From: Octopus sinensis
Taxonomy: Eukaryota
Reading direction: 5' to 3'
Assembly: GCF_006345805.1 (NCBI RefSeq)
Contig: NW_021834209.1
Location: forward strand, 1 to 50,759
DNA length: 50,759 bases
In this document: positions 3,271 to 46,461 of the stretch, in pieces
Numbering within the stretch: position 1 is the stretch's first letter
Layout: each line of letters starts with the position of its first letter
Translations under genes and position numbers: made by a program
The notes under the pieces: generated by a model
What the model saw: only the letters and a program-made list of their open reading frames with translations
Told to the model about the DNA's origin: nothing
Databases searched by the model: none

Positions 3271-3306
3271 ATCTAACGTTTCGGAGGCTTGTCTTTCGTC
3301 AGAAAA
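3271..3306 (-). ncRNA. Degraded hammerhead-like motif of the 25674 type
   Basis: UUUU-CUGACGA-AAGACAAGCCUCC-GAAA-CGUU-AGAU; stem II is decayed. Confidence 0.45.
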
Positions 3307-5045
3307 TGAGAAAGAAATGAAAAAGAAACCGAGATTGTTTAAAGGCAAGCAAATGTCATAAGCAAATATTTAATTTATCAAGATACATAATTTTAGTAAA
3401 ATATTTATGAAAGCACAAAAATATGAGGAGAATTGATTAGATGACTATTGTTGTTTAATTTCTAATGGGGTTTCGATACCCCCCATTCAAAAATATGTTA
3501 ATTTCTTTGGATACCATATATGTAACTGAAATGCTTTCTCATTCACCATCGCACAACGAATCTAACACTGTCGTCACTAACGTTGGTAGTCTCACATCAG
3601 ACACTTGTGTTTATTTAAGGCCTCATAAAGGGTCTCCTTTTAGGGAGGCTGGAAACCAGCAGATTACTTTTTTACCAGCTAGAATGATTGCAACAGAACG
3701 GACTGCACACACACGCACACACACACGCACACACACACACACACACACACACACACGTAAGATGTTACAGAATATATATATATCACAAAACACGATAATA
3801 GATGAAGACATGAAGACACCTGACAGTATAATCGTAGAGAAACGATATACGCATCGAAATGAAACGAAGAAGCTGGACATTTATGGTAAGTGTTGTCAGC
3901 TCCAATGATGGTTCTGAAGTAATCACAGAAGCGATTCTATGCCAGGGTCATGTCACACCCCATATCGCCCCCACGCCAGCGACAGAAAGTTCTTAACCTC
4001 CTTTTTCCCCATGGGGTCGCCATCCGGTTACCTCCCCACTCGATTTCGTTTATATCTCAGTGTAGGTGTTTCATAGCACCAAGCTATCACCAGCTTGTCA
4101 TATGATGTTGGGCTCAGTTACATGACCACTCGTCATCATAAACAGTATCTTCTTCTCGACATAGAACTTATAGTTCATTACCTCTTGCATCACGTGTGTC
4201 CGTCAATGAATTTTCCCATCTTCAACTGAAGTATGAGACATTTTCATTTTGGCACCGCCATTTTCAACTGAGGTTTCATGCATCACCGTTTTGGCGCCGC
4301 CAATTTGGCTTCCCTGATTTGACGCTGACTTATTTGACTTCAGTCATTTTAATACTTCTCCCGTTATTTGACGCTTTACCACCTCTCTATATATATGTGT
4401 CACTCCCTTTCTTTCCCCCCTCTCTCTTTCTTTTGTGTATGTCTGTGTTTATGCGAATGAGCACATTTCTTTTTATGTGTACGTTAAGAGGGAAAGTGTT
4501 TATGGTAAACGCTTTCACATAATAAATTGCTATGTCTCTATCTGCCAACCTCTACGCGCATATGGGTATGTGCACTTGCCTCCAGTGCCAAAATGTACCG
4601 TCGCCAGTTCAGCCTGAATGATCAGTGAACCATGTCAACTCGTCAACATCAAAACACCTACAACCATCGTCTCATAGCTGTACAAGTGGTAGACAACGAC
4701 TTGCATGAAGTTGCTGCAACTGGCATTGATGGCCTAGCTGGAGCACATACTCTACTTGAGTGTCATAATGACGCCTGACAACGCAGAAACATGAGTCACC
4801 CGACTCTGAACATTAAGACCCGGTCATGGTCGAGAAACCGTCAGCAATTCCCAGCCACAACAATTGCTAGTTACAGCAACTAGCAAAGCCAATCTTTTTT
4901 ATCAAGACAATCTGGCATGTTGTTACCGTTTGTGGGACTACAAGAGCAAGGAGAAAGTTAAAACTTGACGCTTATCGAGTAGACGTCTATTATTTTACAG
5001 CTATAACTCGGTACAGATTTGTTCATTGACACCCAGTAAGCACGA

Positions 5046-5610
5046 TACATACATACATACATACATACACACACACACACACACATATATATATATATAC
5101 ATATATATATGTACATACATACATACATACACACACACGCGCATATATATATATATATATATTATATATATATATATTGGCACACATATGTATATATATA
5201 TATGTACATGCACACACACACACACACATATATATATATATATATATATATATATAAGACAAACACACATGTATATATATATATATATATAGAGAGAGAG
5301 AGAGAGAGAGAGAAAGAGAGATTGATAGATAGATAGATAGATAGATAGATAGATAGATAGATAGATAGATAGATAGATAGATAGATAGATAGATAGATAG
5401 ATATGTATATATATATGTATGTGTATATATACATATATGCATATACATATATAGAAATATATAAAAAGAAAAAAAATAATATATATATACATATATATAT
5501 ATATATACATATATATATTTATATATATTCTTGTATACATATACAAATATGTACTTATACACACACATATATGCACGCATGCACAAGTATGCACGTGTAC
5601 ACACATCCAT
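5046..5610. repeat. Compound microsatellite (ATAC)n/(CA)n/(TA)n/(GA)n/(GATA)n, representative of dozens of such tracts
   Basis: Seen directly. Similar tracts at 276-460, 2860-3055, 6138-6420, 11838-11930, 12525-12851, 18731-18890, 22048-22200, 29400-29830, 34270-34650, 34890-35170, 41475-41760 and 42650-42760. Confidence 0.95.
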
Positions 5611-7379
5611 AAATATCTTCATGCACAACCAATGAAACGTTTACAGGCACACAAACACGTATATGTATGCGTGTGTTCGCATGAGTGTGTGCGTGCGCGT
5701 ACGTGTGTGCGTCTGTGTGTGCATATGTAATTCTAGTATGCCTCTAATGAAATTCGTATGTCTTCCCTCGTATCAACATATGGTGCAGCAGCCATTGCTG
5801 TGGAGTCGACTTTACGCCTTTCTTCCTAACAGTTGTTTCGACTTCATCACAATCGTTATTCAAGTCTTGCTTCAACCGAACCAAGCCTTTCGTCCGACTT
5901 TATCACATCTCTTTAGATTTCTTATCAAAAATTCCCCCTCTTGCCAAACGTATTTCTCTTCATATCTAACAATTTATATTGTTTATAATGAATTACATTC
6001 GTGAAATGATCTGTGTAATAGTTAAATTGTTTTCTGGCGCAACACGTCGCTACAATTAACGGCATCTTTGATGAACGAGAGATCACCCCAAACTATTTCT
6101 TCGCGAAAAGAACACAAGAACTGCAGGAGCGATGCCAATATATATACATACACACACTTACACACACACACACACACACATATATATAATATATATATAT
6201 ATGTATACATATATATTTATATATATATATATATATATGTATATATACATATATATATATATATATACATATATATATATGTATATATATATATATATAT
6301 ATATTATATATATATATGTATGTATGTATGTATGTATGTATGTATATATATATTATTATATATATATATATATATATATATTATATATATATATATATAT
6401 ATATATATATATATATATCAGCTAAAATATTCTAGAATATTTCAATGTGTGCCGCAGATGGCACAGTGTATGAGGTATGCGTTTTGACAGGATAAAAAGT
6501 TAAAAGTCACTGGTTAAAAGTACACACATCTCGTCGCCGGCGATGTTGTGCGGGGTGTCCTAAGAAGGCGTTGAGAGTTTAAAGAATTATCAGCAATAGG
6601 AACTACCGCGTTGCACAGACACGTTCATGGAATTGTCTTGGGTAATTCCATAGCTGGCTTCTTCCTTCTTACATGTTTTGCATAAAAAATATTTGTTCCA
6701 CTAGATACAGACAAGGTCACCACAGCAGAACAAAGACGGTGGCGTATTTTGTCGAACACTCTACGAAATCGACCGAACCTCTGCTCTGAAATACATCCTT
6801 GCTTTATCAATCAATTCCACACAGCCAGGTCCTGTTTCCAGTTGGGGGCCAAAGATTGTTTGTAATCAGATCTAGTGTCGGTCGGGCATTCGATTGCAGA
6901 TTCAGAATTGTGTGTGTGTGTGTGTATATATATATATATATATTGAGAGAGAGAGAGAGAGAGAGAGAAAGAGAGAGGGAAAGAAAGAGATAAAGTGAAA
7001 GAGAAAGCGTGCGCATGTGTGTATGTAATTGTATATGTATATATTTTTATATGTATACATGTATACATTCATGCATTATTACATACTCCTCCATGCACAC
7101 ACACACACACACTTATTTTCTGCTTCCCATATACACTGCATTAATATTCCTCGGATTTTCCGTTGCGTTGTTGCTTTTATTGAACTCATAAAGCAAAATA
7201 TGCCGAATGTGCTCTTTTGCCACTTCCATTACAGCTTTGAAAAAATAACTGTTAAAACCGAACTGCACTCTTGAAAACTTGCACTAAGAATAAGCACAAG
7301 GTAAAATTACTACCTGCTTTTATAGCAAGTTGATGCAGGTAGCTTATCCTGTATCCCACCCCCAATATATATATATATA

Positions 7380-45275: not shown

Positions 45276-45442
45276 CACACCCACACACACCGCACAAACA
45301 CACACACACCACAATACACACACACGACACACACACATGCGCACACAACATATAAACATACATGCATACATACGTTATCTATATATATATAATATATATA
45401 TATATATATATATATATTATATATATATATATATATTATATA

Positions 45443-45820
45443 CTAGCAGTATCGCCCGGCGTTTGCTCGGGTTGTAAGGAAATAACTATAAAGCATTTTT
45501 AGAGAGTTATAGCCAAAAAATAGCAAAAAAATGGAAAAAATGATGGTAAATTTTTTTTTAGTTAACAAAGGTGGAGTTGCGTCCCATGACAGTTTGCAGT
45601 TTGTGTTTCTTCTGATTCTCGACCCCATGTCGAATTTATCGATTTTTTCGGAACTGGGGGAACTTTTCAAAATTTTCGCTGCTGCGTTAGTTTTGAATTA
45701 TGACATTGGGCTATGTGTGTGTCAAGTTTCATCAGAATCGGTTGAAAGACGTGGTCAGGGTGAGGGTACAAGCAAACAGACATACAGAAACACGCACAGA
45801 CAAACTGCCGTTTATATAGA
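45443..45820 (-). mobile_element. Non-autonomous Helitron (family B)
   Basis: 5' TC at 45820 and 3' hairpin plus CTAG at 45443. Copy of 33009-33385. Confidence 0.85.
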
Positions 45821-45963
45821 GAAAGATATACGCACACGTAAATTTGCATATGTATATTTATATAAGTATATGTATAAATACATACAAAATTACACAAATT
45901 TATATATAAATATGTACACACACACACACACACACAGATATATATATATATATATATAATGTA

Positions 45964-46461
45964 CAATTATAAATAAGGGCAAAACAAAAAAAAAATTCTA
46001 TGCCAATGTGCTGCCAAAACTAGACCTTATATTGTCTAATCACATACAATATTCTTCACTATAAATACACAATGTGTTGAAACGAAGAAAGAAAGCTGAC
46101 AGAAATTTGAAGAAAAAAAAATAACTTGCTACAAAATTTCTGTTTAGATATACTTGGGGTACTTAAATGTACACATGACTTTGCATCTGCTTTTTCCCTA
46201 GGTATATGTAAGTGTTCCATTTATTTTTAATCAAGTTTTCCGCTGAGGAAGGAAGAATCCTTGTGGATTAATCCAGAAATCGGTCCAATTCGGGAATAAC
46301 GATTTTTTTTTCTTTAAATTTCTGGTAGCTTGCTTTCTTCGTTTCAACACGCTGTGTATTTACAGTGGAAAAATATTGTATGTGGTGATTGAGGATCTAA
46401 GGTCTATTTTTCAGCATAATGGCATAGAAATTTCTTTTTCTTTTGCCCTTATTTATAATTG
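45964..46461. mobile_element. Fold-back element (~155-bp diverged inverted arms) with a hammerhead-like motif in the loop (46240-46290, plus strand)
   Basis: caattataaataagggcaaaa...cactataaatacacaatgtgttgaaacgaagaaag matches the reverse complement of 46303-46461. Loop: CG-CUGAGGA-AGGAAGAAUCC-UUGU-GGAUUAAUCCA-GAAA-UCGG-UC-C. Confidence 0.72.

What the first reader, a model, noticed from the sequence alone, without database searches (positions are those of the whole stretch)
3271..46461. At least seven small elements from several sequence families carry the same minimal hammerhead architecture in 50 kb
Seen: stem I-CUGANGA(-like)-stem II-GAAA-short (near-)palindrome-UH-stem I at 3271, 21215, 25674, 28410, 32158, 40232, 44495 and 46240. 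The palindromes differ (AACGUU, CAGGUG, CCUAGG, CAUAUG, UCGG) and most stem II sequences are unrelated, so structure is conserved where sequence is not. Established: this is the Penelope-like-element/retrozyme type of minimal hammerhead. Inference: a dense, diverse population of ribozyme-bearing non-coding mobile elements. If this window is intronic, intact copies could cleave host pre-mRNA. Most copies here carry core mutations, which could reflect drift or selection against cleavage.
Basis: partly seen in the sequence, partly recalled or inferred. Interest (0 to 1): 0.72.

Follow-up and report, generated by a model that had tools for sequence, protein, structure and literature searches.

The report
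Penelope hammerhead relics, one altered core
The eight hammerhead (self-cutting RNA) motifs are real, but most are worn copies of abundant jumping elements, three shown and the rest likely to be of the known Penelope or retrozyme kinds; the notable point is that one young, protein-coding Penelope family carries a changed core letter (A6 to U) at both ends, predicted to slow cutting, and still has over 12,000 copies.

Summary
All eight sites exist and beat shuffled controls. Seven belong to genome-wide repeat families (17 to 12,974 exact pattern matches, reversed controls 0). Three families (21215, 25674, 32158) are the 3' terminal repeats of Penelope-like retrotransposons (RT + GIY-YIG), so they are stumps of coding elements, not non-coding ones. 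Site 40232 is a 356-nt tandem retrozyme-type unit with a Penelope insertion footprint; 46240 is probably similar. The window is only about 2-3 times denser than a 790-kb genome sample, and its copies are no more decayed (3 of 8 intact against 9 of 32), so drift suffices; no host gene was found. Several 'mutations' are family states: U3-A8 (40232), probably U4C (28410), and A6U (32158). A6U stands in 99 of 100 listed copies and in both repeats of a young 4.5-kb element with an open RT-endonuclease frame, while positions 7 and 17 vary freely. Cleavage is untested. The general picture is published (Cervera and de la Pena 2014); I found no A6U core in print, but one key paper was not held. This scan has already reported A6U and similar families on other DNA, in this genome too.

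The parts
3272..3305 (-). Site A: decayed minimal hammerhead; core CUGACGA and GAAA-CG-UU intact, helix I 3 bp, helix II broken (A.C at its base); no close family found
21169..21349 (-). Site B: 3' terminal repeat stump of a Penelope-like element (family B), hammerhead 21218-21259 with C3 to G and damaged helix II, plus a short inverted arm 21299-21349
25597..25810 (+). Site C: 3' terminal repeat stump between TA tracts; hammerhead 25674-25708 fully intact (canonical A6); sister family of E
28375..28509 (-). Site D: old family; hammerhead 28410-28490 with C at core position 4, long helix II, one change in the CAGCUG palindrome
32042..32263 (-). Site E: 3' terminal repeat stump of a Penelope-like family with a family-wide A6U core; hammerhead 32158-32193, CUGUAGA, otherwise intact
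40015..40551 (-). Site F: 1.5 copies of a 356-nt non-coding unit between TA tracts; one type I hammerhead 40231-40275 with U3-A8 core, U.U at the base of helix II, palindrome CCUAGG; matches the family majority
44439..44863 (.). Site G: two-armed insertion; minus arm holds the whole hammerhead 44495-44574 with G8 to A; plus arm starts inside helix II and carries a longer tail
45963..46550 (+). Site H: element of a 487-nt tandem-forming family with an inverted arm 45963-46122; hammerhead 46237-46296 with intact core, 6-bp helix I, A.A at the base of helix II, one mismatch in the 4-bp helix III (right end approximate)

Best explanation
The eight motifs are hammerhead-shaped ends of dispersed repeats, three of them shown and the others likely to be left by Penelope-like retrotransposition, and most are likely inert passengers decaying by drift. 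Shown: families B, C and E lie just behind RT/GIY-YIG frames in longer copies; copies have variable 5' ends and a fixed 3' end, mostly on a TA tract; B, G, H and F often come with an inverted 5' arm; F is a 356-nt unit without a coding frame that occurs in tandem. Inferred: an element RNA that holds two hammerheads (tandem repeats, or two molecules pairing through the helix III palindrome) would cut itself to unit length and may be closed to a circle; the Penelope enzyme would nick a TA tract and copy the RNA from its 3' end, usually stopping early, which leaves one hammerhead per insertion; F and probably H would borrow that enzyme. A lone minimal copy lacks its partner and is predicted not to cut. 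Family E carries U at core position 6 in both repeats of young, open-frame elements; I take it to be a slowed but still selected hammerhead fold, because only positions 7 and 17, the two free positions of the core, differ between its subfamilies.
For: Family sizes and controls. B: 4 of 25 loci continue upstream into Penelope RT and endonuclease sequence. E: 28 of 30 loci fetched by protein alone carry the E hammerhead 671-994 nt behind the endonuclease, 26 with CUGUUGA, 2 with a one-base indel there, none with A6; a 1,009-aa frame with RVT_1 and a weak GIY-YIG match is flanked by two A6U motifs 4,508 nt apart. C: 3 of 30 longer copies have endonuclease sequence 48-59% identical to E's upstream. 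Inverted partner in 16 of 25 B, 17 of 30 G, 13 of 30 F, 8 of 25 D, 4 of 16 H loci; direct partner in 13 of 30 F (356 nt) and 5 of 16 H loci (487 nt) (the two arms of one insertion can count twice). F: of 22 distinct insertions, 27 of 31 3' ends fall at two places 44 nt apart, 7 of 9 two-armed insertions have one of each, and 17 of 22 have an arm longer than one unit, the arm-and-tail layout described for Penelope-like elements. Pairing kept with other letters: helix I pair 4 is C-G in E and G-C/G-U in C; F palindrome CCUAGG against CUAUAG in a relative. Decay as in the genome sample.
Against: No cleavage, RNA end or circle was observed. A, D and G were not tied to a coding frame (0 of 25 D loci; 1 of 30 G loci has an endonuclease piece upstream but cut off by a SINE and a TA tract). 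None of 27 long E copies starts at the predicted cut site and 5 of 27 run through the upstream motif, which fits an uncut read-through template as well as a circle. Conservation counts for E are partly fixed by the search patterns. G helix II has weak positions (10.4: 17 of 27 paired; 10.7: 7 of 27). Rfam finds no hammerhead at F (0 matches) and none among the 150 of 267 window matches shown. The window is somewhat denser than the sample (bootstrap P 0.018 for 7 or more family hits).
Confidence: 0.8

Rival explanations
1. One reading: a locally dense population of non-coding ribozyme elements inside an intron, whose cores were damaged by selection against cutting the host pre-mRNA.
For: The window is 2-3 times denser than the sample; 5 of 8 sites are damaged; retrozymes are reported to be under-represented in Xenopus introns (10.64898/2026.07.22.740005).
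Against: Damage rate equals the genome sample (3 of 8 against 9 of 32 intact); intact copies lie on both strands; B, C, E are ends of coding elements; no host exon found; single minimal motifs did not cleave in vitro (PMC4209133).
Confidence: 0.07
2. For family E only: A6U killed the ribozyme, the element spreads from uncut read-through transcripts of tandem copies, and the motif persists by descent or as a protein-binding or pairing site.
For: All other CUGA-turn single mutants had low activity in a saturation screen of another hammerhead (PMC9901934); A6C lowers cleavage in Mg2+ sharply (PMC3088659, PMC7151607); 0 of 27 long copies begin at the cut site; Naiad elements spread without a canonical hammerhead.
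Against: Between four subfamily majorities the motif differs only at positions 7 and 17 while flanks carry many changes and indels, and position 17 stays U, A or C in 70 of 71 copies, the pattern expected of selection on a cutting fold; a second young element with a U3-A8 core also reads through its upstream motif (4 of 7), so read-through does not single out A6U.
Confidence: 0.4
3. The motifs are chance matches in repeat-rich DNA.
For: Loose descriptors do give false hits (15082 in the LINE frame; 37 relaxed hits in the shuffled sample against 51 observed), and five SINE copies carry a GAAACGUU look-alike. Site A has no close family.
Against: 0 of 30 and 0 of 40 shuffles reach the window's counts; cores not used as anchors appear upstream in the families (G: CUGAUGA in 24 of 36 anchors, 8 truncated; F: UUGAUAA in 47 of 53, 6 truncated).
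Confidence: 0.02

Closest known systems
Minimal hammerheads (min-HHR) in the pseudo-LTRs of metazoan Penelope-like elements (Cervera and de la Pena 2014, PMC4209133; parts 1-2 of 4 read, supplement file 2 searched, file 1 not searchable)
   Same: Type I order, extra base after A9, G10.1-C11.1, palindromic or absent helix III, thousands of mostly single copies in many heterogeneous families, opposite-strand pairs 100-700 nt apart, a U3-A8 variant.
   Different: No A6U or U4C family is described in the parts read; no cephalopod is named in the searched supplement file; here A6U is the state of a young coding family.
Metazoan non-LTR retrozymes (Cervera and de la Pena 2020, PMC7229834, parts 2-4 of 6 read; Li et al. 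2026, 10.64898/2026.07.22.740005, parts 1-3 of 5 read)
   Same: F: non-coding tandem unit of 356 nt (mussel 350-390, axolotl 330/350), type I hammerhead with 2-bp-plus-tetraloop helix III and U.U at the base of helix II as in axolotl HHR_Amex2; proposed to be moved by Penelope-like elements.
   Different: F adds a U3-A8 core; arrays seen are short (up to 2.5 units) and dispersed; circles and cleavage are not shown here; the inverted-arm and 44-nt-tail footprint is not among the arguments in the parts read. H's unit (487 nt) is above the 150-450 range of the 2020 paper but inside the 51-972 range of the 2026 preprint.
Natural hammerhead core variants (Perreault et al. 2011, PMC3088659, section 8 and passages read; PMC7151607, passages read)
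   Same: U3-A8, U10.1.U11.1 and U4C are described as tolerated; A6C is a natural low-activity variant that prefers Mn2+.
   Different: A6U is not named in the passages read; the A6C case is a single phage sequence, not a family of over 12,000 copies.
Endonuclease-bearing Penelope-like elements, insertion layout (Craig et al. 2021, 10.1101/2021.04.23.441226; 12 passages read)
   Same: Partial tandems, inverted 5'-truncated arm, a tail on one end only, microsatellite targets, RT followed by GIY-YIG with a cysteine linker in the E and second young element.
   Different: Clade was not placed on a tree; 'Neptune-like' rests on the linker motif described there. Tails here are 44 nt (F) and longer in G.

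Membership tests
Penelope-element minimal hammerhead (min-HHR) | Type I order with core CUGANGA, GAAA and UH | tested here: met
   Family majority canonical in B, C, G, H and at A; variant in E (A6U), F (U3-A8), probably D (U4C)
Penelope-element minimal hammerhead (min-HHR) | One extra base between A9 and position 10.1 | tested here: inconclusive
   Present in A, B, C, D, E, H; absent in F and G
Penelope-element minimal hammerhead (min-HHR) | G10.1-C11.1 pair | tested here: inconclusive
   Met in family majorities of B, C, D, E, G (G 26 of 27); not met in F (U.U), H (A.A) and site A
Penelope-element minimal hammerhead (min-HHR) | Palindromic positions 15-16 and loop 3 | tested here: met
   ACGU (A, B, C, E), ACAGCUGU (D, 58 of 59), ACCUAGGU (F), ACAUAUGU (G), AUCGG-U-CCGAU (H, 13 of 16 counting the first-base variant); these letters were partly search anchors
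Penelope-element minimal hammerhead (min-HHR) | Lies in the terminal repeat of an RT + GIY-YIG element | tested here: inconclusive
   Met for B (4 of 25), E (28 of 30 by protein; both repeats), C (3 of 30); not shown for A, D, G; no frame for F and H
Penelope-element minimal hammerhead (min-HHR) | Self-cleavage as a dimer | not testable with these tools
   Needs in vitro transcription or raw RNA reads
Penelope-type insertion | Variable 5' ends, fixed 3' end, inverted arm, tail on one end | tested here: met
   inverted arms common in B, G, F, less in D and H, rare in C and E
Metazoan non-LTR retrozyme (site F) | Tandem unit of a few hundred bases with one type I hammerhead per unit | tested here: met
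   356-nt period, 13 of 30 loci with a direct partner, up to 901 nt continuous
Metazoan non-LTR retrozyme (site F) | No coding frame | tested here: met
   The unit repeats directly; the only Penelope protein match in 30 F loci lies outside it on the other strand
Metazoan non-LTR retrozyme (site F) | Self-paired unit, expressed as linear and circular RNA | tested here: inconclusive
   Folding z -2.5 as a line, -3.2 as a circle (1 of 100 shuffles as good); expression and circles not testable with contigs
Metazoan non-LTR retrozyme (site F) | Loop 1-loop 2 tertiary contact and target-site duplication | not tested
   Flanks are TA tracts; tertiary contact needs probing
Metazoan non-LTR retrozyme (site H) | Tandem non-coding unit with type I hammerhead | tested here: inconclusive
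   487-nt direct partner in 5 of 16 loci, no Penelope protein match in the loci tested; a longer coding parent is not excluded

The most novel reading that the evidence does not exclude
A young, protein-coding Penelope-like retrotransposon amplified to tens of thousands of copies with a hammerhead whose normally invariant A6 is U in both terminal repeats, while the rest of the fold stays under selection. It would be a natural working variant, cutting slowly or only with help (partner RNA, the element's protein, another metal ion), beside a sister family that keeps A6: a ready-made pair to test whether and how fast these elements must cut their RNA.
Probability: 0.35. Interest if true: 0.68.

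Novelty: new variant of a known kind. Interest (0 to 1): 0.42.

Why it matters
The role of the hammerhead in endonuclease-bearing Penelope-like elements is stated to be unclear, and minimal motifs cut poorly in vitro. Family E gives a direct test: an intact, recently copied element with a core change predicted to slow cutting, and a sister family (C) with the normal base. Family F adds an insertion footprint (inverted arm, 44-nt tail, TA targets, more than one unit) to the proposal that animal retrozymes borrow Penelope enzymes. Descriptor searches fixed on CUGANGA miss E, the largest family met here. The window itself is ordinary for this genome: six families alone extrapolate to about 107,000 copies (31 hits in 789,700 bases).

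Tried and rejected
DNA search of the genome with site C found nothing because common words are skipped; patterns were used instead. Rfam gave no hammerhead. The repeat finder was swamped by microsatellites. A GIY-YIG frame upstream of one C copy (L029) first suggested a parent, but that young 784-aa element has its own U3-A8 hammerhead and C follows it in only its source locus: rejected. An endonuclease piece upstream of G in L051 is cut off by other repeats: rejected. Sequencing runs: no RNA holder listed; contigs of three guessed-RNA runs and one unlabelled run hold pieces across site F with variant letters, which shows related copies and nothing on expression, ends or circles. No RNA evidence for or against a host gene was obtained; 0 of 110 frames of 45 aa or more in less repetitive parts hit Pfam, which cannot exclude short exons or one long intron. 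5' ends of long E copies do not pile up at the cut site (0 of 27): uninformative, as a circle and an uncut multimer predict the same. The ungapped overlap figure was out of register and is replaced (95% over 182 nt). The A6U hit in the literature search was a twister ribozyme. Lunse et al. 2017 on Penelope hammerhead variants is not held and was seen only as a citation in PMC6765202; it may describe position-6 variants. bioRxiv supplements and one supplement file of PMC4209133 could not be seen. PMC13282606 (octopus repeat annotation) has no occurrence of 'hammerhead' or 'ribozyme' (term search only). Permuted hammerheads reported by earlier notes were not looked for in this window.
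Full report
Setting. The window is a whole unplaced contig (G000:C10680) of a 2.72-Gb genome, 38% G+C and rich in microsatellites. At least 58% of it is repeat by comparison with fetched loci. The only long frames belong to a LINE at about 13250-20060. The organism is likely an octopus; this rests on recalled genome features and earlier notes of the scan, not on a test.

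Observation. All eight motifs are present; I call them A (3271), B (21215), C (25674), D (28410), E (32158), F (40232), G (44495), H (46240). A strict descriptor finds 3 hits in the window against 0.1 in shuffles (0 of 30 reach 3); a wider one, tuned after seeing the window, finds 5 against 0.2 (0 of 40). One hit in each set lies in the LINE frame and is likely false. Exact patterns over the genome give 4,945 (C), 1,759 (G), 65 (F), 4,303 (B), 59 (D), 17 (H) and 12,974 (E) matches with 0 in each reversed control. For G, F, D and H the pattern fixed only the 3' half, so the core was a free test: CUGAUGA in 24 of 36 G anchors (8 truncated, 4 variant) and UUGAUAA in 47 of 53 F anchors (6 truncated). 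A loose pattern for A finds 20 places with unrelated flanks, 2 of them SINE copies; A has a broken helix II and is the weakest site.

Density. In 79 evenly placed 10-kb blocks (789,700 bases) the strict descriptor gives 18 hits (1.16 per window length; shuffled 0.26) and the wide one 29 (1.86; shuffled 0.32); Poisson P for the window is 0.11 and 0.04. Profiles of the window's own families give 31 hits, 2.0 per window length, against 7 insertions here (bootstrap P 0.018), but these families were chosen from this window, which inflates the excess. The window is modestly rich, not exceptional; six families extrapolate to about 107,000 copies.

What the families are. B: 4 of 25 loci continue upstream into RT and GIY-YIG sequence ending about 150-200 nt before the motif. 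E: 4 of 30 loci and one random block carry the same endonuclease upstream. Searching with that 109-aa piece returned 150 scored matches, all at 98% identity or more and 85 identical over the full length; 28 of the 30 fetched loci carry the E motif 671-994 nt downstream. A copy with a 1,009-aa open frame (RVT_1 above cut-off, GIY-YIG below) is flanked by two motifs 4,508 nt apart. C: longer copies exist (144 matches) and 3 of 30 show endonuclease sequence 48-59% identical to E's upstream. G and D show inverted partners (17 of 30, 8 of 25) but no coding parent within 1.5 kb. H forms 487-nt tandems (5 of 16) and inverted arms (4 of 16). F is a 356-nt unit, 94% alike between copies, with direct (13 of 30) and inverted (13 of 30) partners. 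In 22 distinct F insertions, 27 of 31 3' ends fall at two places 44 nt apart, mostly against TA tracts, 7 of 9 two-armed insertions have one of each, and 17 of 22 have an arm longer than one unit. This is the inverted-arm and one-sided-tail layout described for Penelope-like elements and suggests that F is copied by their enzyme (inference). In the window B, G and H carry inverted arms.

Mutations against family states. Copy-level lesions: B (C3 to G, helix II), G (G8 to A; second arm starts inside helix II), A (helix II), D and H (one change in helix III). Family states: F has U3-A8 and U.U at the base of helix II, both described as tolerated, the latter also in an axolotl retrozyme. D has C at position 4 in 7 of 14 parsed copies, the rest fitting decay of a CpG, so U4C is probably ancestral (inference); a C subfamily also has U4C (6 copies). 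E has U at position 6 in 99 of 100 listed matches, C in 1, A in none, with all four bases at position 7; among 71 of 74 collected copies of canonical length, 69 have U6 and position 17 is U, A or C in 70 (many were collected by a pattern that fixed neighbouring letters). The 28 copies found by protein alone have CUGUUGA in 26 and a one-base indel in 2. Four subfamily majorities differ in the motif only at positions 7 and 17 while flanks differ widely. Helix I pair 4 is C-G in E and G-C or G-U in C; F's palindrome CCUAGG is CUAUAG in a relative. Intact copies: 3 of 8 here (C, E, F) against 9 of 32 in the random sample, so no excess decay.

Mechanism. Shown: anatomy, family membership, coding parents of B, C, E, insertion layout. 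From the literature: single minimal motifs did not cleave and dimers cleaved weakly; retrozyme repeats yield circular RNA and are proposed to use Penelope enzymes. Inferred: RNAs with two motifs cut to unit length, perhaps close, and are copied from the 3' end into nicked TA tracts with early stops, leaving one motif per insertion. Lone copies are predicted inert; F, with a 2-bp-plus-tetraloop helix III like an axolotl motif that cut 22% in an hour as a monomer, is the only intact one likely to cut alone. For E, changes in the CUGA turn lower activity in other hammerheads, so slow cutting is predicted. Long E copies never start at the cut site (0 of 27) and 5 run through the upstream motif, as do 4 of 7 copies of a second young element with a U3-A8 core; this does not tell a circle from an uncut multimer. 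I put a selected, slowed fold slightly ahead of a dead motif.

Host gene. None found: 0 of 110 frames hit Pfam; no RNA evidence either way. Selection against cleavage of pre-mRNA is unsupported and could not be tested by strand.

Novelty. The population, heterogeneity, single copies, opposite-strand pairs and U3-A8 are published. A6U as a family state was not found by three full-text searches or in the one searchable supplement file of PMC4209133; Lunse et al. 2017 was not held. Earlier notes of this scan report the same A6U family in this genome, A6U in other genomes, and similar retrozyme footprints; I reached these readings before seeing them (my reading was filed) and do not count them as support. 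Verdict: observation confirmed, interpretation partly supported, a new variant of a known kind, interest 0.42.

Noticed in passing
window 13251-20062 (-): LINE with zinc-knuckle first frame, RT frame and two zf-RVT pieces (13251-14360 and 19409-20062), the second upstream of the first frame, as if a 3' piece of another copy precedes it.
   Followed up: no
window 913(+), 26499(-), 28740(+), 36753(-), 41472(-): Five copies of a SINE-like repeat whose head holds GAAACGUU, a look-alike of the hammerhead 3' half; two copies elsewhere in the genome matched a loose hammerhead pattern by chance.
   Followed up: partly
L288-L293, L239, L258-L287: A second young Penelope-like element (784-aa frame, 4,366-nt unit, RVT_1 + GIY-YIG) with a U3-A8 minimal hammerhead in both repeats; not present in the window.
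   Followed up: partly
L223 and L248 (random blocks): Two copies of a hammerhead with the 3:8 pair swapped (GUGAACA), 7-bp helix I; agrees with earlier notes on a swapped-core family.
   Followed up: no
L282-L284 (near both ends of contig C23): A relative of unit F (74% alike) with U3.G8, G.U at the base of helix II and palindrome CUAUAG, sitting in inverted orientation right behind the second young element.
   Followed up: partly
window 40027-40168: Contigs of public runs cover this part of unit F far more deeply than the hammerhead part and one joint skips 202 bases, hinting at a more abundant relative with a different middle.
   Followed up: no
families C and E, e.g. L294-L323, L354-L416: Inverted arms are rare in C and E (2 of 30 E loci; none adjacent in 27 long copies) but common in B, G, F and the second young element, a lineage difference in insertion layout.
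   Followed up: no
window 33248(-) and 45677(-): Two copies of another repeat hold CUGAUGA and GAAA in order but no helix I; not counted as hammerheads.
   Followed up: no
window 9857-9998: Perfect tandem of a 28-nt unit, 5.1 copies, next to an AAT tract.
   Followed up: no
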